Positions 3,935-46,728 of a stretch of 64,000 nt of DNA are shown here, piece after piece. Where the stretch lies: assembly GCF_003790525.1 (NCBI RefSeq), contig NZ_CP033635.1. One strand, 5' to 3'. The DNA is from Escherichia coli. GTDB taxonomy: Bacteria; Pseudomonadota; Gammaproteobacteria; Enterobacterales; Enterobacteriaceae. The notes below the pieces were generated by a model. That model was not told the DNA's origin and ran no database searches. It saw nothing but the letters and a program-made list of their open reading frames with translations. The stretch's first letter is position 1. Each line of letters starts with the position of its first letter. Position numbers and translations under genes: made by a program.

Positions 3935-4018
3935 GTAGGTATGATAAGACGCACCAGCGTCGCATCAGGCATTGTGTACAGAGCGGCGGATGAGGCAAAA
4001 ACGCCTTATCCGCCCGAA
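3935..4018. repeat. REP/BIME element cluster between ygaY and proX
   Basis: Sequence gtaggtatgataagacgcaccagcgtcgcatcaggc ... ggcggatgaggcaaaaacgccttatccgcccgaat matches the E. coli REP palindrome family. Confidence 0.7.
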
Positions 4019-4024
4019 TAAAAA

Positions 4025-5017
4025 TTACTTCTGCGCTGCCAGCGCTTCATTCACCCAGCCATCGAACTGCTGCTGGTGGGCTTTGATCCAACCATCAACG
4101 TGGCCCTGAATATCGCCTTCTGAGGCTTTGCCGTCATGCATAATGGCGTTCTGGGCGTTAATATCTGCCACTGGTAACTGCATAATGGCAAACAGTTTCG
4201 CTGCTGCCGGGTTTTTCTCAGCCCAGGCTTTGTTGGCAACGATATGCATGGTACTGACCGGGAAGCCGTAATTCGCGCCATTCGGCAGTTTGGTATCGGC
4301 ATTTTTATCGCCCGGCAGTGCGGAGAACGGCACCTGCAACCAGACCACATCTTTCCCCGGTTTCAGTTCGTTACTCACCCAGTACGGCGTCCAGGTGTAG
4401 TAAAACACCGGCTTACCCTCTTTGTAACGACTGATGGTGTCAGCCATCATCGCTGCGTAGTTCCCCTGATTATGCGTCACGGTATTGGTCAGTCCATACG
4501 CGGCAAGCTGGTGGTTGATCGCACCTTCGCAGCCCCAGCCTGGGTTACAGCCGGTTAAATCCGCTTTACCGTCGCCGTTGGTATCGAACAGTTTGGCGAT
4601 CTTCGGATCTTTAAGTTGCGCGATGTTGGTAATTTTATACTGGTCGGCGGTTTTCTTATCGATCAGGTAACCCTGTGCCGCGCCGTTAACAAATACTCCT
4701 TCACGATAAAATTTCTTATCGCCACCGGCAGCTTCATACATGTTGTCATGCAGCGGCGTCCAGTTCACGGCGGTGAAGGTTGCATCGCCGGAAGCAAGTG
4801 AGGTGTAGCCAACGTTGTAATCCACTTCGCTGGGTTTATTGACGGTATAACCTAATTTCTCCAGTGCACGACTGACCAGCAGCGTCTGGAAGGTTTCTTC
4901 AGTGATGGTACTCTGAACTGGATTAACAGTAATGCCTTTGCCCGGCAGATCGGCAGCAAAAGTTTGTGTAGAGATAAGCGTGGCAAACGCTGTCGCAAAA
5001 AGTACGCTATGTCGCAT
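4025..5017 (-). CDS. proX: Glycine betaine/proline betaine periplasmic binding protein ProX
   Basis: ORF with signal peptide [21 protein letters not shown]; start placed at the internal ATG that has a Shine-Dalgarno, not the track's upstream extension. Confidence 0.92.
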
Positions 5018-5074: not shown

Positions 5075-6139
5075 TTACTTAATGAATGGGCGGGTCAGCA
5101 GACCGACAGGGCCAGTGGTGTACCAGCGACGGTTGCCGCGACTGCGTGAGTCGCGCCCAACGGCCTGCGTCAGGCGGTCGAGGATAATGGCGAGGATCAC
5201 AATCCCGACGCCGCCAACGGTGGCAAGCCCCATATCCAGACGACCGATACCGCGAAGTACCATCTGACCCAGCCCGCCGACGGCAATCATCGAGGCGATG
5301 ACCACCATAGAAAGGGCCAGCATCAGCGTCTGGTTAACGCCCGCCATAATGGTTGGCATCGCCAGTGGTAACTGAACTTTGAACAGCATCTGGCGCGGGC
5401 TGGCACCGAATGAGCGCGAGGCTTCAATCAGATCCGCCGGAACCTGGTTAATTCCCAGAATCGTCAGACGGATAATCGGCGGCAGCGCAAAGATGATTGT
5501 CACCACCACGCCCGGCACGTTACCGATACCAAACAGCATGACGATTGGCACCAGATAAACAAACGCGGGCGTGGTCTGCATGGCATCAAGCAGTGGACGA
5601 ATAATTTTCGCCGCTCGCGGACTTCTCGCCAGCCAGATCCCCAACGGCAAACCTATGACGATACAGAACAGCAGGGCGGTTAACACCAGCGCCAGGGTAA
5701 CCATGGCCTGCGACCAGGCACCGATTGCGCCGATGGCAATCAGCGAAACCAGCGTCGCCACGCCCATTCCGACCCCGGAAATCTGCCAGGCGATGAGAGC
5801 GAAAACGATAATCGCCACCGGCGCGGGCATACCCAGCAGCAATTGCTGGAAACCGTTGAGGATGTAATCAACCGGAAGGCGCACGCCCTGAAAGACGGGA
5901 CGAAAATGGGTAACGACCCAGTCGATCCCTTCAGTGACCCAACTGTCGAGCGGGATTAGCGTTTTATGGAACGGATCGAGAATATTAAAATGCTCGACGT
6001 TTGGCGCAGGCGTACTGGTCAGCCAGTCAGCGCCACCGCCGTCAGTCGGTGCAGTCGCCGGTGTACCCCAGGCGTCTGCGGATTGTGCAGCACTGTCCGC
6101 CGCTGGCGTGGTATCCCACGGATTATTTTGATCAGCCAT
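5075..6139 (-). CDS. proW: Glycine betaine/proline ABC transporter permease ProW
   Basis: 354-aa membrane ORF; proVWX operon order. Confidence 0.93.
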
Positions 6140-7334
6140 TATTTACCCCCTCACGATCTAAAGCGCGCAGCAGCATTCCTTTCGAAATAATGCCGACATA
6201 CTGTTGGTCCTCGTCGACCACGGGCACCGCACAGGGTGCCTGTCCGACATGAGAGAGCAACTCGCTAAGAGGCGTTTGTGCATCGACCGCTAACGGCGCA
6301 TCAATCAGCGCCGCATCAAGACCTTGCTGCTGCGTTAACGCGGTTTTAAGCGAATCGATAGACACTGCGCCGACAAACTTATTACCACGTTCGATGACGT
6401 AGCCATATTCGCGATCTTCATCCTGCAATAATTTCAGTGCCGAACGCGGGCCGAAGCCGGGGGTTTTACGAATTAAGCCGTTCGGTGTCCGGCGAGCAAT
6501 ATCTTTCGCACTGAATACCTGACTAATATCGACGCCACGGAAGAAGGTACGGACATAATCATTCGCCGGATTATTAAGAATTTCATCCGGTGTACCAACC
6601 TGCACCACTTCACCATTTTGCATAATGGCAATTCGGTCACCAATACGCATAGCTTCATCGAGATCGTGGGAAATAAAGACAATGGTGCGCTGATGTTTCG
6701 CCTGTAATTTTACCAGCTCATCCTGCATCTCGGTGCGAATTAATGGATCGAGCGCCGAGAAGGCTTCGTCCATTAATAATATATCCGGATTAATCGCTAA
6801 CGCGCGGGCTAATCCCACACGTTGACGCATCCCGCCAGAGAGTTCATCCGGGTAGCTGTGGGCATAATTTTCCAGCCCGACCTGACGCAGTGCATCAAGG
6901 GCTTTTTCCCGGCGTCCTTCGGCATTAATTCCGGCCAGTTCCATACCGAACGCAGTATTGTCCAGCACGGTCATATGCGGCATTAAGGCAAAGGACTGGA
7001 ATACCATCGCAATCTTTTTTCTGCGCACCTCACGGAGTTCGGCGTCGGATATTTTGGCAATATCCACACCATCAATCAGCACTTGCCCGCGGGTGGGTTC
7101 AATCAGGCGATTGAGAAGGCGTACCATTGTGGATTTACCCGAACCGGATAATCCCATGATGACAAATATCTCGCCTTCTTCAATGGCCAGACTGGCGTCT
7201 TTTACGCCAAGCGATAGCCCAGTTTTTTCAAGAATTTGTTCTTTTGAAAGTCCTTGTTCGATATATTTGAAAGCTCGCTGTGGATGCTCACCAAATATTT
7301 TATAAAGATTTTTAATTTCTAATTTAATTGCCAT
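6132..7334 (-). CDS. proV: Glycine betaine/proline ABC transporter ATPase ProV
   Basis: 400-aa ORF with Walker A (GLSGSGKST), ABC signature ([15 protein letters not shown]) and C-terminal CBS region. Confidence 0.95.
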
Positions 7335-8658: not shown

Positions 8659-10803
8659 TTAAAGTGCACAGGAGACGCAGCCTTCAATTTCAGTGCCTTC
8701 CAGCGCCATCTGACGCAGGCGAATGTAATAGAGCGTTTTGATACCCTTGCGCCAGGCGTAAATCTGCGCTTTGTTGATATCGCGAGTGGTGGCGGTATCG
8801 GGGAAAAACAGCGTCAGCGACAGCCCCTGATCGACATGGCGAGTCGCTTCCGCGTAGGTGTCGATGATCTTTTCTGCGCCGATTTCGTAAGCGTCCTGAT
8901 ACAGCGCCAGATTTTCGTTAGTCATAAACGGGGCAGGGTAGTAAACGCGTCCTGTTTTGCCCTCTTTGCGTATCTCTACTTTCGCCACAATCGGATGAAT
9001 ACTCGACGTGGCATGGTTGATATAAGAGATAGAACCGGTTGGGGGCACCGCCTGGAGATTCTGGTTGTATATGCCATAGCACATCACGTCGTCGCGCAGC
9101 TGCGCCCACATCTCACGGGTAGGTAACGTAACACCACTACGGGCAAACAGTTCGCCAACTTTCGCCGTTTTCGGCTGCCAGTTACTTTGCAGATATTGGC
9201 TGAAATATTCACCACTGGCATAGCGTGACTGTTTGAACCCGGCGAAGGTTTCACCGCGTTCGCGCGCCAGCAACATCGAGGTACGCAGTGCGTGCCAGGT
9301 GATGGTATAGAAATAGAGATTGGTGAAATCCAGTGCTTCCGGCGAACCATAAGCGATGCCTTCTCGCGCCAGATAACCGTGTAAATTCATCTGCCCCAGA
9401 CCGATGGCGTGTGAGGCGGCATTTCCGGCTTCGATGGACGGCACACTGCGGATATGACTCATATCTGACACCGCCGTTAAACCGCGTACGGCAGTCTCTA
9501 CCGTGCGGGCAAAGTCGGGGGAATCCATGGTGTGGGCAATATTCAACGAACCTAAATTGCAGGAAATATCATGGCCTGTACGGGCATAGTCGAGATTCTC
9601 GTCATAATCTGAGGCGCTGTTAACCTGCAAAATTTCTGAGCAGAGATTGCTCATATTTATGCGCCCGGCGATAGGGTTAGCACGGTTAACCGTGTCTTCA
9701 TACATGATGTACGGATAGCCAGACTCAAACTGGATCTCTGCCAGTCGCTGGAAGAAATCACGGGCGTTGAGGTATTTTTTGCGAATGCGTTCATCGGCAA
9801 CCAGTTCGTCATAGTGTTCACTGATGGCGACATCGGCAAACGGCTTGCCATAAACCCGCTCAACGTCATAGGGCGAAAACAGCGCCATCTGCGCATTCTC
9901 TTTCGCCAGATGGAAAGTGATATCCGGGATCACCACGCCCAGCGACAGTGTTTTAATGCGGATTTTTTCGTCGGCATTTTCCCGTTTTGTATCGAGAAAA
10001 CGCAGAATATCGGGATGATGAGCATGTAAATAGACTGCCCCAGCCCCCTGACGCGCGCCGAGTTGGTTGGCATAGGAAAATGCGTCTTCCAGCATTTTCA
10101 TCACCGGAATCACGCCAGAAGATTGATTTTCAATACGTTTAATTGGCGCGCCCGCTTCCCGCAGATTCGACAGCAAAAATGCTACGCCGCCGCCGCGTTT
10201 CGACAGTTGTAGTGCGGAATTTACTGCCCGGCCAATCGACTCCATATTGTCTTCAATACGCAGCAGAAAACAGGAAACCAGTTCGCCGCGCTGCTGCTTA
10301 CCGCAGTTGAGGAATGTTGGCGTGGCTGGCTGAAAGCGTCCTGACAGCATCTCATCAGTGAGCTGCGTCGCTAGTGTTTCATCGCCTTGTGCCAGCGTCA
10401 GCGCCACCATCGTGACGCGATCGGCAAAATCTTCCAGATAACGCTTACCGTCGAATGTCTTCAACGTATAGCTGGTGTAAAACTTCCATGCTCCGAGGAA
10501 TGTCTGGAAACGAAAACCGCTGGCGTGCGCGTGGGCAAACAGCGTAATGACAAAATCGCGAGAGTAGCGATTAAGGACGCTTTCATCATAGTAACCTTCG
10601 TTAACCAGCCAGTTCAGGCGCTGCTGCTGGCTACTGAAGGCCACACTGTTCGGACGCACATGCGTTGTCATAAAGGCGTCTACTGCCTGGCGATCTTTAT
10701 CGAACTGAATGCGACCTGCGCTATCGTAAAGGTTAAGCATCGCATTCAGAGCGTGATAATCCATCGTTTCCTGCGTCAGGCGTTCTGCGGTTGTCGTTGC
10801 CAA
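8659..10803 (-). CDS. nrdE: Class Ib ribonucleotide reductase alpha subunit NrdE
   Basis: 714-aa ORF with C-terminal cysteines (...CVSCAL). Confidence 0.95.
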
Positions 10804-11186
10804 AATTCGGTTACTCCTTTACGAACGTTTTCGATATCGCTTTGCGTACCCATGAGTTCAAAGCGGTACAGCCACGGCACGCCGCATTTCCGGGCAATCA
10901 CATCTCCGGCGCGGCCATATGCCTCACCAAAGTTGCGATTACCCGAAGCAATAACGCCGCGCAGCAACGCCCGGTTATGCTCGTCGTTTAAAAAGCGAAT
11001 GACCTGTCGTGGCACCGCGCCAGCCGTACCGCCGCCGCCGTAAGAGGGCACGATCAGGATGTAAGGCTCGTCTACCTGAATCCGTTCCCGCTCATTGAGC
11101 GGGATGCGCACCGCGGGCAGCCCTAAACGTTCGATAAAACGCTGCGTATTTTCGGAGCTGCTGGAAAAGTAGACGAGCTGGCTCAT
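10776..11186 (-). CDS. nrdI: Flavodoxin-like NrdI
   Basis: 136-aa ORF overlapping the nrdE start. Confidence 0.93.
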
Positions 11187-11428
11187 GCACTGGCCGCGTG
11201 TGGCGCTGGATGCAGACGATTGATCATGTCCGGGCGGAAACCAGACCAGCTAAGATCGCCTGCAATCACAACCGGCAACTGACGAAAGCCCTGAGCACGC
11301 AGCGCTTCTGCCGCTTCAGGAACGCGATCGACATTAATCATTTCAAAATCAAAGCCCCGGTTTTCCATCGCCCGTTTGGTGGCGTGGCACTGAACGCAAT
11401 CGTTACGAGTGTAAATAGTAATGCGCAT
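11183..11428 (-). CDS. nrdH: Glutaredoxin-like protein NrdH
   Basis: 81-aa ORF with CVQC redox motif; first gene of nrdHIEF. Confidence 0.93.
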
Positions 11429-34300: not shown

Positions 34301-35955
34301 TCGTCTATGCAGGTACGCTGGCGGATGCATCGGTCAGTGGCGCGACAGGAAGCCTGTCGTTAATGACGCCACGGGATAATGTTACGCCAGTTAAACTCGA
34401 AGGGGCGATCCGGATTACCGATAGCGCGACATTAACTATCGGAAATGGCGTCGATACGACGCTTACCGACCTGACGGCTGCCAGCCGGGGCAGTGTCTGG
34501 CTTAACAGCAATAATTCCTGTGCAGGTACCAGCAACTGCGAATATAGAGTAAACAGTTTGCTCCTCAACGACGGTGATGTTTATTTATCAGCACAAACAG
34601 CAGCGCCTGCCACAACTAACGGTATCTACAATACGCTGACAACCAGTGAACTTTCCGGCAGCGGTAATTTCTACCTGCATACCAACGTTGCAGGCTCCCG
34701 GGGCGATCAACTGGTCGTCAACAACAACGCCACTGGTAATTTTAAAATCTTTGTTCAGGATACCGGCGTCAGCCCTCAGTCTGACGACGCGATGACGCTG
34801 GTGAAAACAGGGGGAGGGGATGCTTCGTTTACGCTGGGTAATACCGGCGGTTTCGTTGATCTTGGGACCTATGAGTATGTCCTGAAAAGCGACGGCAACA
34901 GCAACTGGAACCTGACCAATGATGTCAAACCCAACCCGGACCCCAACCCAAATCCGAAGCCGGATCCAAAACCAGACCCAAAACCGGATCCGAAACCAGA
35001 CCCGACTCCCGATCCAACGCCGACACCCGTCCCGGAGAAACGCATCACGCCTTCTACGGCAGCCGTACTCAATATGGCAGCAACATTACCGTTGGTCTTT
35101 GATGCTGAGCTAAACAGTATTCGCGAGCGGTTGAACATAATGAAAGCGAGTCCACACAACAATAATGTCTGGGGGACGACGTATAACACCCGTAATAATG
35201 TCACCACCGATGCGGGTGCCGGGTTTGAGCAGACGCTGACCGGAATGACGGTGGGGATCGATAGCCGTAATGATATTCCTGAGGGGATTGCGACGCTGGG
35301 CGCTTTTATGGGTTATTCCCATTCACATATCGGTTTTGATCGTGGAGGACATGGCAGTGTGGGCAGTTATTCTCTGGGGGGCTATGCCAGCTGGGAACAT
35401 GAAAGTGGTTTCTATCTGGACGGTATCGTGAAGCTGAACCGCTTTGAAAGTAACGTAGCCGGTAAAATGAGCAGCGGTGGAGCCGCCAACGGCAGTTATC
35501 GCAGCAACGGGCTGGGCGGTCACATTGAAACCGGGATGCGATTTACCGATGGTAACTGGAACCTGACGCCGTATGCATCGTTAACGGGGTTCACCGCTGA
35601 TAACCCCGAATATCATTTATCCAATGGCATGGAATCGAAATCAGTCGATACCCGCAGTATATATCGTGAACTGGGCGCAACGCTGAGTTACAACATGCGT
35701 CTGGGGAACGGCATGGAAGTTGAGCCGTGGCTGAAGGCGGCTGTGCGCAAAGAATTTGTCGATGATAACCGGGTGAAAGTGAATAATGACGGTAATTTTG
35801 TCAATGATTTGTCGGGCAGACGTGGAATATACCAGGCAGGTATTAAAGCCTCATTCAGCAGTTCGTTAAGCGGGAATCTCGGGGTGGGGTATAGCCATGG
35901 TGCCGGTGTGGAATCCCCGTGGAACGCAGTGGCTGGTGTGAACTGGTCGTTCTGA
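31378..35955 (+). CDS. ypjA: AIDA-type autotransporter adhesin-like protein YpjA
   Basis: Signal peptide MKFMNRTSLHYCRRSVLSLWISALIYAPPGMA (alternative start 31387); long passenger with ~19-aa beta-helix repeats (GG.Q.V..GG.A..T.I); Pro-rich linker; C-terminal beta-barrel ending ...AGVNWSF. The track ORF starts at an upstream GTG (31258). Confidence 0.85.
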   Translation: MKFMNRTSLHYCRRSVLSLWISALIYAPPGMAAFTPDVIGVVNDETVDGSQKVDERGTTNNTHIINHGQQNVYGGISNESLIESGGYQDIGRHNNYVGQANNTTINGGRQTIHDGGISTGTIIESGNQDVYTGGISNGTTIKGGNSHISGGTANGTIIDGGSQRVTTQGHVDSTTINKSGSQDVVQGSLATNTTINGGRQYVEQSTVETTTIKNGGEQRVYESRALDTTIEGGTQSLNSNSTAKNTQIYSGGTQIVDYTSTSDVIEIYSGGVLDVRGGMATNVTQHDGAALKVTTYDLTVSGTNSEGAFSIHNNVADNVLLENGGHLDVYGSATRTIIKDKGTMSVLTNAKADATRIDNGGVMDVAGNATNTIINGGTQNINNHGIATGTNINSGTQNIKSGGKADTTNISSGSRQIVEKDGTATGSNISAGGSLIVYTGGIAHGVNQETGSALVANTGAGTDIEGYNKLSRFTIIGGEANYVVLENTGELTVVAKTSAKNTTIDAGGKLIVQKEAKTDSTRLNNGGVLEVQDGGEAKHVEQQSGGALIASTTSGTLIEGTNSYGDAFYIRNSEAKNVVLENAGSLTVVTGSRAVDTIINANGKMDVYGKDVGTVLNSAGTQTIYASATSEKANIKGGKQTVYGLATEANIESGEQIVDGGSTDKTHIKGGTQTVQNYGKAINTDIVSGLQQIMANGTAEGSIINGGSQVVNEGGLAENSVLNDGGTLDVREKGSATGIQQSSQGALVATTRATRVTGTRADGVAFSIEQGAANNILLTNGGVLTVESDTSSAKTQVNAGGREIVKTKATATGTTLTGGEQIVEGVANETTINDGGIQTVSANGEAVKTTINEGGTLTVNDNGKATDIIQNSGAALQTSTANGIEISGTHQYGTFSIAGNLATNALLENGGNLLVLAGTEARDSTVGKGGAMQNLGQDSATKVNSGGQYTLGRSKDEFQALARAEDLQVAGGTAIVYAGTLADASVSGATGSLSLMTPRDNVTPVKLEGAIRITDSATLTIGNGVDTTLTDLTAASRGSVWLNSNNSCAGTSNCEYRVNSLLLNDGDVYLSAQTAAPATTNGIYNTLTTSELSGSGNFYLHTNVAGSRGDQLVVNNNATGNFKIFVQDTGVSPQSDDAMTLVKTGGGDASFTLGNTGGFVDLGTYEYVLKSDGNSNWNLTNDVKPNPDPNPNPKPDPKPDPKPDPKPDPTPDPTPTPVPEKRITPSTAAVLNMAATLPLVFDAELNSIRERLNIMKASPHNNNVWGTTYNTRNNVTTDAGAGFEQTLTGMTVGIDSRNDIPEGIATLGAFMGYSHSHIGFDRGGHGSVGSYSLGGYASWEHESGFYLDGIVKLNRFESNVAGKMSSGGAANGSYRSNGLGGHIETGMRFTDGNWNLTPYASLTGFTADNPEYHLSNGMESKSVDTRSIYRELGATLSYNMRLGNGMEVEPWLKAAVRKEFVDDNRVKVNNDGNFVNDLSGRRGIYQAGIKASFSSSLSGNLGVGYSHGAGVESPWNAVAGVNWSF
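34930..35034 (+). repeat. Tandem Pro-rich (NP/KPDP/TP) linker repeat inside ypjA
   Basis: Encodes PNPDPNPNPKPDPKPDPKPDPKPDPTPDPTPTPVP from near-identical 12-nt units (ccg gat cca aaa / cca gac cca aaa). Confidence 0.85.
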
Positions 35956-36115: not shown

Positions 36116-36478
36116 TGGTGGAGCTGGCGGGAGTTGAACCCGCGTCCGAAATTCCTACATCCTCGGTACTACATGCTTAGTCAGTCTTTACATTCGCTTG
36201 CCAGCTGCGGACGGACACGCCACTAACAAACTAGCCTGATTAAGTTTTAACGCTTCAACCCCAGGCAGGGCTTCCACGCGATCTCTTTTGGGTTTGACCT
36301 CTCTTGATCCCCGTCCTAAGAGCGGAGGCTAGGGAGAGAGGGCTCTAAGCAGGTTATTAAGCTGCTAAAGCGTAGTTTTCGTCGTTTGCGACTATTTTTT
36401 GCGGCTTTTTACGAGGCCAACCGCCCCTCGGCATGCACCTTGGGTTTCGCAAATCCCGTCGAATCCAGAATCAGCCCC
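36116..36478 (-). ncRNA. ssrA: tmRNA (SsrA), 363 nt
   Basis: Reverse complement reads GGGGCTGATTCTGGATTCGACGGGATTTGCGAAACCC...GCGGGTTCAACTCCCGCCAGCTCCACCA; includes the tag reading frame region. Confidence 0.95.
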
Positions 36479-41240: not shown

Positions 41241-41329
41241 TTTTCCGAGGTCCTTGTTGCGAAGATTGATGACAATGTGAGTGCTTCCCTTGAAACCCTG
41301 AAACTGATCCCCATAATAAGCGAAGTTAG

Positions 41330-41953
<624 letters not shown>

Positions 41954-41962
41954 ATATCTGAT

Positions 41963-41990
41963 GGCCGACGCGAAGTCGGCCATTTTTTTA
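41963..41990 (+). terminator. grpE intrinsic terminator
   Basis: ggccgac-gcgaag-tcggcc hairpin followed by TTTTTTT. Confidence 0.8.
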
Positions 41991-42629
41991 GCTTAAAAAA
42001 TCCTGTACTTCCAGCCACGGCGTGTTGAAATCATCTATTTTTTTATATTCGTTCATTGGCAGAACGACCACGTTATAGGTGTCAGATCCTTCATTCAGAT
42101 CAAAAATCTGAAAGCCCCTTTTATTGAGTTCGGTTTGGATGCGTTCAAAGATTTCGTCAAGGTAACGGTCTCCGGCTTCACAGACATCGGAGATTTCATC
42201 CTCTTGGGTTATTTCGACAAGAAGACTCCTTAATTCCTCAGAAGCTGTCAGGTTTTTTGTGAGCTCATAAAAGCGATCTGCAGCAAAATTAGCCAGCTCA
42301 CCTTCTTCATCTTCACCTTTCCAGTCAACGAGTTGAATTAGTCCTTCACCGCGCAGAACCTGTAAAAATGCCTGCGCCAGGTCATGATTTCCGAGATCGC
42401 CTCCACTGCAATCGAGAACGTCTTGTAATCCATATTCGTCTTCATCTTCGTCTTCAAAGATTTCAGGTTGCGTCGAAAGTTGAGAGAAAATAGTGGGCCA
42501 TAAGGTTGGGGTGTGCTGTAAAAAAACGCTGGCGACGACGTTGAGATCGTCTGCAAAATCCTTATCCCATTCAATTAAATAATCTTCTGACATAACATCA
42601 ATATCCTTTCCGAATGTTTGAAAAGACAT
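41988..42629 (-). CDS. Very acidic hypothetical protein (orphan between grpE and yfjD)
   Basis: 213-aa ORF, visibly AT-rich, many Asp/Glu (e.g. EDEDEDEYGLQDV, DWKGEDEEGEL); no recognisable motif; start may be the downstream Met (MSEDYL). Lies between the yfjD terminator and the grpE terminator. Confidence 0.6.
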   Translation of the reverse strand: MSFQTFGKDIDVMSEDYLIEWDKDFADDLNVVASVFLQHTPTLWPTIFSQLSTQPEIFEDEDEDEYGLQDVLDCSGGDLGNHDLAQAFLQVLRGEGLIQLVDWKGEDEEGELANFAADRFYELTKNLTASEELRSLLVEITQEDEISDVCEAGDRYLDEIFERIQTELNKRGFQIFDLNEGSDTYNVVVLPMNEYKKIDDFNTPWLEVQDFLS

Positions 42630-42682
42630 TATTACATTGCTAAGTAAATGACAGGAATTGATGGAATCCTAAAAGACGGCGA

Positions 42683-42710
42683 TAAAAAAAAAGGCGAACC
42701 GGAGTTCGCC
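42683..42710 (-). terminator. yfjD intrinsic terminator
   Basis: On the - strand: ggcgaac-tccg-gttcgcc followed by a 9-T run, directly after the yfjD stop. Confidence 0.8.
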
Positions 42711-42716
42711 ATTGCG

Positions 42717-43979
42717 TTACTCCGCCACGCTCTCGCGTAGCGGTTTCACAGGAAAAACTTTTACCTGCTTAATCATATTGTCCTGAACGTCGAGAATATC
42801 AATATCGTACTCGCCAATACGCACGCGGGTGCCTGCTACCGGGATCTCCTCCAGCGCTTCCAGAATGACGCCGTTAACAGTACGAGCATCATCTTCCGGT
42901 AGATGCCAGTTAAAGGCTTTGTTAATTTCTCGCACGTTGGCAGTGCCATCAATAATCACCGAACCGTCGTTTTGTGGCGTAACTTCTTCGGCAAGTGTTG
43001 GCGACATCGACGTGGTGAAATCGCCGACAATCTCTTCCAGAATATCTTCAACCGTCACCAGCCCCTGAATGTCTCCATACTCGTTGACGACCAGGCCGAC
43101 TTTCTTTTTGTTGCGCTGAAACTTCACCAACTGCGTGCTGAGCGGCGTACCTTCCGGGACAAAATAGATCTCGTCCGCGGCGCGTAGCATGGTTTCTTTG
43201 GTGAACTCTTTTTTCTCCGACATGAGTCGCCAGGCTTCACGCACACGCAGCATACTGATGGCGTCGTCCAGCGAATCACGGTAGAGCACGATGCGCCCGT
43301 GAGGTGAGTGGGAGAGTTGGCGCAGAATCGATTTCCAGTCATCGTTGATATCAATACCGATAATTTCACTGCGCGGCACCATGATGTCATCAACGGTCAT
43401 TTTTTCCAGATCGAGCACCGACAGCAGCATATCCTGATTGCGACGGGAAATTTGTGAGCGCGATTCGTGCACGATAGTGCGCAACTCTTCTTTGCTCAAA
43501 GAGCCGCTAACCACGATATCGGTTTTGATACCCATCATGCGCATCAGCATACGGGTGATAGCATTCAGCAACCAGACCAGCGGCATCATCAAAATTTGCA
43601 GCGGAGCCAGCAGAAAACTACTCGGATAAGCGACTTTTTCCGGGTACAGCGCGGCAATGGTTTTCGGCAATACCTCAGCAAAAACCAGCACGACAAAAGT
43701 CAGCACACCAGTCGCAATTGCCACGCCCGCATCGCCGTACAAACGCATCCCAACAATAGTGCCTAGCGCGGAGGCAAGAATATTGACCAGGTTATTGCCG
43801 ATTAACACCAGGCTAATCAGGCGGTCTGGCTTACGCAGCAATTTTTCGACGCGTTTGGCCGAGCGATTACCCTGTTTCGCCATATGTCGCAGACGATAGC
43901 GGTTGAGGGTCATCATTCCGGTTTCGGACCCGGAAAAATAGGCTGAAATGACCACCATGATGATCAGAATAATGATCAA
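42717..43979 (-). CDS. yfjD: CNNM/CorC-family membrane protein YfjD (DUF21 + CBS pair + CorC_HlyC)
   Basis: 420-aa ORF MIIILIIMVVISAYFSGSETGMMTLNRYRLRHMAK... Confidence 0.9.
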   Translation of the reverse strand: MIIILIIMVVISAYFSGSETGMMTLNRYRLRHMAKQGNRSAKRVEKLLRKPDRLISLVLIGNNLVNILASALGTIVGMRLYGDAGVAIATGVLTFVVLVFAEVLPKTIAALYPEKVAYPSSFLLAPLQILMMPLVWLLNAITRMLMRMMGIKTDIVVSGSLSKEELRTIVHESRSQISRRNQDMLLSVLDLEKMTVDDIMVPRSEIIGIDINDDWKSILRQLSHSPHGRIVLYRDSLDDAISMLRVREAWRLMSEKKEFTKETMLRAADEIYFVPEGTPLSTQLVKFQRNKKKVGLVVNEYGDIQGLVTVEDILEEIVGDFTTSMSPTLAEEVTPQNDGSVIIDGTANVREINKAFNWHLPEDDARTVNGVILEALEEIPVAGTRVRIGEYDIDILDVQDNMIKQVKVFPVKPLRESVAE

Positions 43980-44023
43980 CGTAGTAGTAGAAATGTGTTC
44001 CAGGGGAAACTCCTTTTCTGGGT

Positions 44024-46343: not shown

Positions 46344-46401
46344 ATGACCTTATGCGACAGAGTTATTAACTGCTGATTGCATTTTCTCCAGAAATCAGTA
46401 A

Positions 46402-46728
<327 letters not shown>

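What the first reader, a model, noticed from the sequence alone, without database searches (positions are those of the whole stretch)
41988..42629. AT-rich orphan gene for a highly acidic 213-aa protein between grpE and yfjD
This ORF sits between two strong terminators (grpE and yfjD). It is AT-rich, has no motif I recognise, and is extremely rich in Asp/Glu (EDEDEDEYGLQDV, DWKGEDEEGEL, ITQEDEISDV). From memory K-12 has no gene here. Small, very acidic, horizontally acquired proteins are often DNA mimics (anti-restriction or anti-defence) or toxin-immunity proteins, so this is a candidate for one of those roles.
Basis: partly seen in the sequence, partly recalled or inferred. Interest (0 to 1): 0.55.

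Follow-up and report, generated by a model that had tools for sequence, protein, structure and literature searches.

The report
Acidic DUF6630 gene beside grpE
This is a real, already catalogued gene for a very acidic protein of unknown function (Pfam family DUF6630) that about 6% of E. coli strains, but not K-12, carry at a fixed spot next to grpE; nothing yet shows it to be a DNA mimic or an immunity protein.

Summary
The ORF is real. Its true product is 201 aa, starting at the second ATG (42593), not 213 aa. It has pI 4.05 and net charge -37, GC3 is 40% against 51-64% in neighbouring genes, and it lies between the grpE and yfjD terminators.

It is not an orphan. RefSeq annotates it as a DUF6630 family protein (WP_001287889.1) and Pfam PF20335 matches at E=1.3e-10. 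It occurs in 303 of 5,426 complete E. coli genomes, always as one chromosomal copy at this site. K-12-type strains have an unrelated 54-bp spacer there.

Orthologs occupy the same yfjD-[gene]-grpE site in E. whittamii, Salmonella, Klebsiella spallanzanii and Superficieibacter, and lie beside yfjD in Entomohabitans. No mobile-element gene is annotated beside the E. coli, Salmonella or Klebsiella copies. The ~0.8-kb cassette nevertheless has its own history: deep allele classes, one shared between E. coli and Salmonella. dN/dS is about 0.1.

A confident AlphaFold model has no solved structural relative, is not SUKH, Ocr or ArdA, and matches no viral protein. Defence and phage family libraries, phage genomes and the literature gave nothing.

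My best guess, at low confidence, is a polyanionic decoy that binds a basic partner. Function remains unknown.

The parts
41988..42593 (-). Coding sequence (stop codon included) of a 201-aa DUF6630 family protein with pI 4.05 and net charge -37. It is identical to RefSeq WP_001287889.1.
   Evidence: ORF. PGAP annotation in a 100% identical locus. Pfam PF20335 at E=1.3e-10. The start is fixed by the ortholog alignment and by upstream conservation. dN/dS is 0.09-0.16. AlphaFold2 model with pLDDT 89.8 and pTM 0.86.
42604..42611 (-). Shine-Dalgarno sequence GGAAAGGA, 10 nt upstream of the true ATG start codon.
   Evidence: Read from the sequence. The GGAAAGGA core is conserved in E. coli, E. whittamii, both Salmonella allele classes and Superficieibacter.
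42594..42629 (-). The upstream in-frame ATG at 42627-42629 is not a conserved start.
   Evidence: The first ATG is absent in the class II Salmonella allele and in Superficieibacter, and is frame-shifted by a 1-nt insertion in E. whittamii. No Shine-Dalgarno sequence precedes it.
42630..42683 (-). Short intergenic stretch that must hold the gene's own promoter. No consensus sigma-70 or sigma-32 site was found. A TGTAATAAT element at 42628-42636 is a possible extended -10, by inference only.
   Evidence: Promoter scan found 0 sites. My own sigma-70 and sigma-32 scan was negative, with positive controls working. The stretch is nearly identical among Escherichia alleles and the E. coli-like Salmonella allele.
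42684..42710 (-). Intrinsic terminator of yfjD (GGCGAAC-TCCG-GTTCGCC followed by T9). It insulates the DUF6630 gene from yfjD read-through.
   Evidence: Terminator scan. The hairpin is conserved in E. coli, E. whittamii and S. Senftenberg, and recognisable in the class II Salmonella allele and Superficieibacter; the K. spallanzanii and Entomohabitans rows do not share it.
41960..41990 (+). Intrinsic terminator of grpE (10-bp stem followed by a T run). The T run overlaps the DUF6630 stop codon, and the palindromic hairpin probably also ends DUF6630 transcription.
   Evidence: Terminator scan and sequence. Bidirectional use is an inference.
41951..42716. The variable cassette: everything between the last codons of grpE and the yfjD stop codon. 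About 94% of E. coli genomes have an unrelated 54-bp spacer with a single terminator here. The boundary changes the GrpE C-terminus, which is 196 aa (...AKAK) here and 197 aa (per the K-12-type CDS length) in K-12-type strains.
   Evidence: Alignment of occupied and empty sites. 302 of 5,425 genomes carry the long form. Sliding identity shows the block has a history different from its flanks.

Best explanation
**What it is (shown, about 0.95 confidence).** This is a genuine, selectively maintained gene for a folded, cytoplasmic, two-lobed 201-aa protein of the uncharacterised Pfam family DUF6630. It is a stand-alone transcription unit between the yfjD and grpE terminators. It is an accessory gene held at one fixed chromosomal site in Enterobacteriaceae. 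It segregates as a ~0.8-kb cassette with presence/absence polymorphism and deeply diverged alleles, which move between strains and even genera by homologous recombination in the conserved flanks.

**How it most likely works (inferred, low confidence).** The protein acts stoichiometrically as a polyanionic decoy or inhibitor. Its strongly negative surface is concentrated in the loops FEDEDEDEY (46-54) and WKGEDEEGE (91-99) and in helices between residues 115 and 138. I propose that it binds and sequesters a basic, probably nucleic-acid-binding, protein. The family-wide DWxGE...D-x-Y core would form the structural or contact platform. The partner is unknown. Fast evolution, allele classes and patchy distribution suggest a partner that itself varies, such as a toxin, nuclease or foreign DNA-binding protein, rather than a core housekeeping protein.
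For: **Identity**
- Pfam DUF6630 at E=1.3e-10 and the RefSeq name.
- 45 of the 47 AFDB50 structural matches at E<=0.001 are named DUF6630 or 'cytoplasmic protein'.
- dN/dS is 0.09-0.16.
- Start codon and Shine-Dalgarno sequence are conserved.
- The model is confident: pLDDT 89.8.

**Fixed site**
- The same synteny is seen in E. coli, E. whittamii, Salmonella, K. spallanzanii and Superficieibacter, and on the yfjD side in Entomohabitans.

**Cassette behaviour**
- Identity to S. Senftenberg is 89-95% in the cassette and 79-88% in the flanks. Identity to E. coli DCE7 is 75-87% in the cassette and 94-100% in the flanks.
- dS is 0.29 in the gene and 1.3-1.45 in yfjD and nadK.
- Only 303 of 5,426 genomes carry it.

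**Polyanion function**
- pI 4.05 and net charge -37.
- All 11 alleles in the ortholog alignment keep 44-52 acidic residues despite heavy turnover. For example, P0035 lost 22 and gained 19 acidic positions and still has net charge -33. Twelve acidic positions are invariant.
- The wider family is also acidic: distant members have median pI 4.9.
- dN is about 10 times that of neighbouring genes.
Against: - No partner has been identified.
- No neighbouring gene is conserved across family contexts.
- There is no match to any known DNA mimic, immunity, defence or anti-defence family by sequence or fold.
- A motif with invariant E94 and D171 and near-invariant D90, W91 and G93 across phyla fits a conserved ligand or catalytic site better than a co-evolving protein interface.
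- Extreme acidity is specific to this clade. Some distant members are neutral or basic.
- No expression data were found.
Confidence: 0.35

Rival explanations
1. It is an orphan immunity protein. It neutralises a basic interbacterial toxin (colicin/pyocin-type nuclease, CDI, Rhs or T6SS effector) delivered by competitors, and is kept by frequency-dependent selection without a cognate toxin gene nearby.
For: It is small, acidic and cytoplasmic, with a patchy distribution. There are deep allele classes and sharing between genera that occupy the same gut niche. It evolves fast under purifying selection. A Providencia relative lies 0.9 kb upstream of an hcp-vgrG island. A Bacteroidetes relative sits in a run of unannotated same-strand genes.
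Against: No toxin gene is immediately adjacent in any locus with annotated neighbours. The related Providencia-type locus has the same backbone without the T6SS island. There is no SUKH or Imm Pfam hit or fold. A motif conserved across phyla is unusual for immunity proteins.
Confidence: 0.15
2. It is an anti-restriction or anti-defence DNA mimic of the Ocr/ArdA type, and protects incoming DNA.
For: Its charge density (-0.18 per residue) is in the range of known DNA mimics (the comparison rests on general knowledge). One distant relative in Chitinophaga lies between an IS3 transposase and a TraG/YWFCY conjugative coupling protein, so it appears to be conjugative-element cargo.
Against: The enterobacterial clade is chromosomal at a fixed housekeeping site. 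No phage copies were found, and the one 'plasmid' hit examined is a chromosome fragment. There is no PHROGs hit, no viral structural relative, no Ocr or ArdA structure among the fold matches and no PADLOC hit. A resident chromosomal gene gains nothing obvious from blocking the host's own restriction.
Confidence: 0.08
3. It is a small enzyme or a cation-binding protein. The invariant carboxylates D90, E94 and D171 would bind a metal or substrate, and the acidic surface would buffer Mg2+ or polyamines. This might connect it to the upstream CNNM/CorB-type transporter gene yfjD.
For: E94 and D171 are invariant, and D90, W91 and G93 nearly invariant, across 22 diverse family members. The gene lies directly downstream of yfjD on the same strand in all five genera.
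Against: A strong terminator separates it from yfjD. No fold match to any enzyme or EF-hand-type binder was found. Distant relatives have unrelated neighbours. About 94% of E. coli lack the gene and keep yfjD.
Confidence: 0.15
4. It is an accessory factor or regulator of the heat-shock chaperone network, acting with GrpE/DnaK or HtpG.
For: It lies next to grpE in at least four enterobacterial genera. A 28%-identical relative lies directly upstream of htpG in another Enterobacterales-like genome. Two chaperone-adjacent contexts out of about five independent proteobacterial ones is more than chance would predict, by a rough post-hoc estimate.
Against: It is convergent with grpE and has separate terminators. 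No sigma-32 promoter lies upstream of any DUF6630 gene, although the scan found perfect sigma-32 sites for grpE and htpG as controls. Other contexts are unrelated to chaperones. It is dispensable in 94% of E. coli.
Confidence: 0.07
5. It is a functionless relic: an ancestral gene drifting towards loss with no present role.
For: It has been lost from about 94% of E. coli genomes. No recognisable consensus promoter was found. Truncated variants exist in databases.
Against: dN/dS is 0.09-0.16 even between alleles with saturated dS. Length, start codon, Shine-Dalgarno sequence and net charge are conserved across genera. All 303 E. coli copies match over at least 80% of the query length, and 99-100% in the 25 listed.
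Confidence: 0.05

Closest known systems
Pfam PF20335 (DUF6630), annotated in Salmonella and E. coli as 'cytoplasmic protein'
   Same: It is a direct member. There is a significant HMM match, the shared DWxGE and G-x-D-x-Y motifs, the same predicted fold as AFDB DUF6630 entries with TM up to 0.98, and identity to RefSeq WP_001287889.1.
   Different: Nothing differs in kind. The enterobacterial clade is the most acidic part of the family, with median pI 4.05 against 4.9, and it is tied to one chromosomal site. The family has no known function and no paper in the searched library.
DNA-mimic anti-restriction proteins (T7 Ocr, ArdA)
   Same: Small and strongly acidic, with a comparable negative charge density (the figures for Ocr and ArdA are from general knowledge).
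   Different: There is no sequence or fold similarity. The gene is not carried on phages or true plasmids. It is resident in the chromosome between housekeeping genes.
Nuclease and toxin immunity proteins (SUKH/SMI1-KNR4, colicin Im proteins, barstar)
   Same: Small, acidic and cytoplasmic, with patchy distribution, rapid evolution and strong allelic diversity.
   Different: There is no SUKH or Imm HMM hit or fold. No cognate toxin gene is immediately adjacent in any locus with annotated neighbours. The conserved motif spans several phyla.
Resident acidic regulators of E. coli that bind basic partners (for example RraB and MsyB; from general knowledge, not tested here)
   Same: Chromosomal, stand-alone, very acidic small proteins thought to act by binding other proteins.
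   Different: No homology was detected; NCBIfam found nothing. Those genes are core genes in E. coli, whereas this one is present in only 5.6% of complete genomes.

Membership tests
Pfam DUF6630 (PF20335) | Significant match to the family HMM | tested here: met
   E=1.3e-10, residues 54-199 on model positions 25-145 of 158. The database's precomputed Pfam assignment for the protein is also PF20335.
Pfam DUF6630 (PF20335) | Family-wide conserved core: (I/V)DWxGE after the first strand, and G-x-D-x-Y in the C-terminal hairpin | tested here: met
   D90, W91, G93, E94 and D171 are invariant or nearly invariant in a 22-member diverse alignment.
Pfam DUF6630 (PF20335) | Same predicted fold as other family members | tested here: met
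   Foldseek against AFDB50 gave 47 hits at E<=0.001. Of these, 45 are named DUF6630 or 'cytoplasmic protein' and two 'Uncharacterized protein'. TM is 0.5-0.98.
SUKH / SMI1-KNR4 immunity superfamily | HMM match to a SUKH or Imm Pfam family | tested here: not met
   The only significant Pfam hit is DUF6630. The same holds for 10 of 11 distant relatives.
SUKH / SMI1-KNR4 immunity superfamily | SUKH alpha/beta fold | tested here: not met
Polymorphic-toxin immunity genes (general) | Located immediately downstream of a toxin gene, or inside an immunity-gene array | tested here: not met
   At the enterobacterial site the neighbours are yfjD and grpE. Other contexts with annotated neighbours have no immediately adjacent toxin gene. 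The one hcp-vgrG neighbour is absent from the related locus.
DNA-mimic anti-restriction proteins (Ocr, ArdA) | Sequence or fold homology to Ocr or ArdA | tested here: not met
DNA-mimic anti-restriction proteins (Ocr, ArdA) | Carried by phages, plasmids or conjugative elements | tested here: not met
   There are 0 phage matches. The 2 PLSDB matches are large non-mobilizable records, and the one examined is a chromosome fragment with ffh, grpE and recN. All 303 E. coli copies are chromosomal. One distant Chitinophaga relative does appear to lie on a conjugative element.
DNA-mimic anti-restriction proteins (Ocr, ArdA) | Surface carboxylates arranged like the phosphates of B-DNA | not testable with these tools
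   Only composition could be measured: net charge -37, with acidic loops at 46-54 and 91-99.
DNA-mimic anti-restriction proteins (Ocr, ArdA) | Inhibits restriction or defence systems in vivo or in vitro | not testable with these tools
   This needs phage-plating or binding experiments.
Known anti-phage defence systems (PADLOC) | Match to a defence-system protein model | tested here: not met
   0 families at E<=1.
Sigma-32 heat-shock regulon (with neighbour grpE) | Sigma-32 promoter (CTTGAAA-N13-15-CCCCAT) upstream | tested here: not met
   There is none within 3 mismatches upstream of the gene in E. coli, Salmonella, Klebsiella or the htpG-adjacent relative. Perfect sites were found for grpE and htpG as controls.

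The most novel reading that the evidence does not exclude
DUF6630 could be a new structural family of polyanionic, nucleic-acid-mimicking inhibitors, acting as an anti-toxin or anti-nuclease 'shield'. In enteric bacteria it would be kept as a single-gene cassette at a fixed core-genome site by balancing or frequency-dependent selection. Allele classes older than the E. coli-Salmonella split would be swapped between genera by flank-mediated recombination.
Probability: 0.18. Interest if true: 0.65.

Novelty: already known. Interest (0 to 1): 0.33.

Why it matters
As it stands, this is a catalogued gene of unknown function, so the immediate value is in tidying the record:
- the correct start codon;
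- family membership in DUF6630;
- an inheritance picture that is locus-bound rather than mobile-element-borne.

It could matter more for three reasons. First, the fold has no solved relative. Second, extreme negative charge is actively maintained through residue turnover. Third, the gene shows presence/absence polymorphism, deep allele classes and allele sharing between E. coli and Salmonella at an otherwise conserved housekeeping locus. That population pattern is typical of genes involved in conflict with toxins, phages or competitors. Natural carrier and non-carrier E. coli strains exist, so a simple knockout or transfer experiment could assign a first function to a whole DUF family.

Tried and rejected
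1. **Known protein libraries.** NCBIfam, PADLOC, PHROGs, and PDB sequence and profile searches gave no significant hit.
3. **L7/L12-like C-terminal extension.** By eye, the extension in some Bacteroidetes relatives resembled the ribosomal L7/L12 C-terminal domain. Pfam and a PDB sequence search (best E=0.05, to MatA) did not support this, so I dropped it.
4. **Domain fusions.** The larger relatives (P0060, P0094, P0061 and others) showed only DUF6630 plus one Yip1 membrane domain.
5. **Guilt by association.** I used all 12 context look-ups. No partner gene is conserved. The hcp-vgrG neighbour in Providencia looks incidental.
6. **Chaperone link.** The grpE and htpG adjacency is not backed by a sigma-32 promoter.
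7. **Wide collection scans.** Narrower alignments gave 7 genome loci and 1 metagenome locus.
8. **Literature.** DUF6630, PF20335, STM2680 (a locus tag I recalled from memory) and three WP accessions gave 0 papers. A grpE+yfjD search gave only an unrelated Lactococcus paper.
9. **RNA elements.** Rfam found nothing above threshold in the locus.
10. **Linked divergence around the indel.** Divergence is 5-9% within about 400 bp, against a 0-3% background. Similar peaks occur elsewhere in this mosaic region, so it counts only as weak support for an old polymorphism.

Full report
**Observation**

It lies between grpE (41363..41953, +) and yfjD (42717..44003, -). Intrinsic terminators sit on both sides: grpE's at 41960-41984, and yfjD's at 42710-42693 followed by nine T's.

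GC is 43.0% and GC3 is 40.3%. Six neighbouring genes have GC 50-54% and GC3 51-64%. The protein has pI 4.05, 24% Asp+Glu and net charge -37, and is the most acidic of the 51 ORFs of at least 150 aa in the window.

Two corrections apply.
- **The product is 201 aa, starting at the second ATG (42593).** All orthologs begin there. A conserved GGAAAGGA Shine-Dalgarno sequence precedes it. The first ATG is absent in the class II Salmonella allele and frame-shifted by a 1-nt insertion in E. whittamii. RefSeq/PGAP makes the same call.
- **The gene is not an orphan.** See the next section.

**Identity**

RefSeq annotates the 100%-identical gene as 'DUF6630 family protein', WP_001287889.1. Pfam PF20335 matches at E=1.3e-10. 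The exact protein is seen on at least 1,000 contigs under the names 'cytoplasmic protein', 'DUF6630 family protein' or 'hypothetical protein'.

An exhaustive profile search of 1.84 billion representative proteins found only 57 clusters at E<=0.001, so the family is real but rare. Members are scattered over Enterobacterales, Vibrio, Bacteroidota, Paenibacillus and others. Diverse members share an (I/V)DWxGE motif and a G-x-D-x-Y hairpin. E94 and D171 are invariant, and D90, W91 and G93 are nearly invariant.

**Distribution and the empty site**

The gene is present in 303 of 5,426 complete E. coli genomes (5.6%). It is always a single copy, always chromosomal, and at this locus in both carriers whose annotation I examined; 302 genomes carry the long form of the yfjD-grpE interval. 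All other genomes, including the K-12 derivative J53, B2 strain PMV-1 and O157:H7, have an unrelated 54-bp spacer with one terminator.

The indel boundary lies in the last codons of grpE. GrpE is 196 aa (...AKAK) in carriers and in Salmonella, and 197 aa (by CDS length, 594 nt) in K-12-type strains.

**Is it a recent horizontal acquisition?**

Not in the usual sense. The order ffh-ypjD-yfjD-[DUF6630]-grpE-nadK-recN is found in E. coli, E. whittamii, Salmonella enterica, Klebsiella spallanzanii and Superficieibacter electus. In Entomohabitans the yfjD side is seen before the contig ends. No mobile-element gene is annotated beside the gene in the E. coli, Salmonella or Klebsiella loci; I did not run a repeat search. 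There is no phage copy. The only two 'plasmid' hits are large non-mobilizable records, and the one I examined is a chromosome fragment carrying ffh, grpE and recN.

Even so, the ~0.8-kb cassette has a history of its own.

| Comparison with the window | Cassette identity | Flank identity | dS in the gene | dS in flanking genes |
|---|---|---|---|---|
| S. Senftenberg | 89-95% | 79-88% | 0.29 | 1.33 (yfjD), 1.46 (nadK), 0.56 (grpE) |
| E. coli DCE7 | 75-87% | 94-100% | 0.88 | 0.07-0.15 |
| Salmonella, second allele class | 57-71% | 76-90% (100% at the grpE-nadK promoter region) | 2.18 | 1.36 (yfjD), 1.45 (nadK), 0.61 (grpE) |

The second Salmonella allele class is only about 61% identical at the protein level. 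There are therefore deep allele classes, one of them shared between genera, on top of the presence/absence polymorphism.

Carrier and non-carrier E. coli haplotypes are 5-9% divergent within about 400 bp of the indel, against a 0-3% background. The region is mosaic elsewhere too, so this is weak evidence.

**Is it a real, constrained gene?**

Yes. dN/dS is 0.09-0.16 in every comparison where dS could be estimated. dN is nevertheless about ten times that of neighbouring genes: 0.26 against 0.02-0.04 for E. coli versus Salmonella.

All 11 alleles in the ortholog alignment keep 44-52 acidic residues despite heavy turnover. P0035, at 46% identity, lost 22 and gained 19 acidic positions and still has net charge -33. 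Twelve acidic positions are invariant. Bulk negative charge therefore appears to be under selection. The wider family is moderately acidic (median pI 4.9, net charge -12) and includes a few neutral or basic members.

**Structure**

AlphaFold2, run on an 11-sequence alignment, gives a confident model with pLDDT 89.8 and pTM 0.86. It has an N-terminal helical lobe (about residues 11-82) and a C-terminal alpha/beta lobe with strands at 87-90, 161-167, 172-179 and 195-197.
- Foldseek against AFDB50 gave 47 matches at E<=0.001. Of these, 45 are named DUF6630 or 'cytoplasmic protein', and two are 'Uncharacterized protein'.
- BFVD viral structures give no match at E<=0.001.
- PDB sequence and profile searches are negative.

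**Function by association**

NCBIfam, PADLOC and PHROGs give nothing. Contexts of distant relatives are heterogeneous:
- recR-[X]-htpG;
- folA-LysE-[X] with or without a downstream hcp-vgrG island;
- LysR-[X]-dms-type oxidoreductase;
- thiamine and SMR genes;
- runs of unannotated genes;
- in Chitinophaga, between an IS3 transposase and a TraG/YWFCY coupling protein, so apparently on a conjugative element.

No partner gene recurs. No annotated neighbour immediately next to a DUF6630 gene is a toxin, although many neighbours have no Pfam annotation.

Adjacency to a chaperone gene occurs twice (grpE, htpG), which is more than a rough post-hoc chance estimate would predict. However, a sigma-32 scan that finds perfect promoters for grpE and htpG finds none upstream of any DUF6630 gene. 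No consensus sigma-70 promoter is found either. No Rfam element is present. The literature library has no paper on the family or its identifiers.

**Interpretation**

Shown:
- it is a real, conserved DUF6630 gene;
- it is a stand-alone unit between two terminators;
- it is an accessory gene bound to one locus;
- the cassette shows decoupled allelic behaviour;
- the extreme negative charge is maintained;
- the fold has no characterised relative.

Inferred at low confidence (about 0.35): the protein works as a polyanionic decoy or inhibitor that binds a basic partner, probably a nucleic-acid-binding protein. Fast evolution and the allele classes hint that the partner is variable.

Rival readings:
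- orphan immunity protein (0.15);
- small enzyme or cation binder using D90, E94 and D171, possibly related to the CorB-type neighbour yfjD (0.15);
- MGE-type anti-restriction DNA mimic (0.08);
- chaperone-network accessory factor (0.07);
- relic gene (0.05).

The generic electrostatic idea survives, but without positive evidence.

**Verdict**

This is an already catalogued member of an uncharacterised family, so it is ordinary as a discovery. It is modestly interesting because of its unmatched fold, its maintained polyanionic character and its unusual population genetics at a core locus. Interest is 0.33.

Noticed in passing
L010 (NZ_LN868944.1, 18446-27048); also NZ_CP110658.1: The PLSDB record NZ_LN868944.1 is labelled a Salmonella plasmid (728 kb, non-mobilizable) but carries core chromosomal genes (ffh, yfjD, grpE, nadK, recN, bamE). 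It is evidently a chromosome fragment filed as a plasmid. NZ_CP110658.1 (272 kb, non-mobilizable) may be the same kind of record, but I did not examine it.
   Followed up: partly
window 41940-41953 versus L003 about 545-557: The indel boundary lies inside the last codons of grpE. GrpE is 196 aa (...AKAK) in carrier strains and in Salmonella, and 197 aa in K-12-type strains. The K-12 form of the GrpE C-terminus is therefore probably a by-product of the event that removed or replaced the cassette.
   Followed up: partly
window 31258-35955 (+), 29594-30451 (+), 36116-36478 (-): A 1,565-aa Ag43/AIDA-type autotransporter adhesin (ypjA-like) and a YpjCB-family ORF lie next to the tmRNA gene ssrA. 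This is the usual island-integration region downstream of ssrA.
   Followed up: partly
P0060 (801 aa) and P0075 (423 aa), distant relatives: P0060 has two matched DUF6630 stretches, the best at residues 395-559, after a proline-rich linker and a roughly 330-aa N-terminal region with no Pfam hit. P0075 is made of five near-identical tandem copies of only the N-terminal helical segment of the domain.
   Followed up: no
P0061, P0073, P0078, P0084, P0086: A subgroup of DUF6630 proteins carries a conserved C-terminal extension of about 70 aa (Y.IY......K.M.YLKN.....L.EI...........G...........LGA...I). It matches no Pfam family or PDB sequence. P0084 lies in a Bacteroidetes-type gene context; the source organisms of the others were not determined.
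   Followed up: partly
L020 3977-11403 (Chitinophaga polysaccharea): Here a DUF6630 gene (5917-6531) lies between an IS3-family transposase (3977-4771) and a TraG/TraD-YWFCY conjugative coupling protein (9418-11403, minus strand). It appears to be on an integrative conjugative element, unlike the enterobacterial copies.
   Followed up: partly
L011 6559-6763 and window 41241-41362: Textbook sigma-32 promoters (CTTGAAA-N13/14-CCCCAT, no mismatches) lie upstream of grpE in the window and upstream of htpG in the locus where a DUF6630 gene sits between recR and htpG.
   Followed up: yes
window about 46344-46480 versus L033 8939-9186: The ffh-rpsP intergenic spacer is about 112 bp longer in the K-12 derivative J53 (248 bp) than in PMV-1, O157:H7 and this window's strain (136 bp). 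This fits the 10-12% mismatch peak in the 46200 bin, and probably reflects a small repeat-element insertion in K-12.
   Followed up: no
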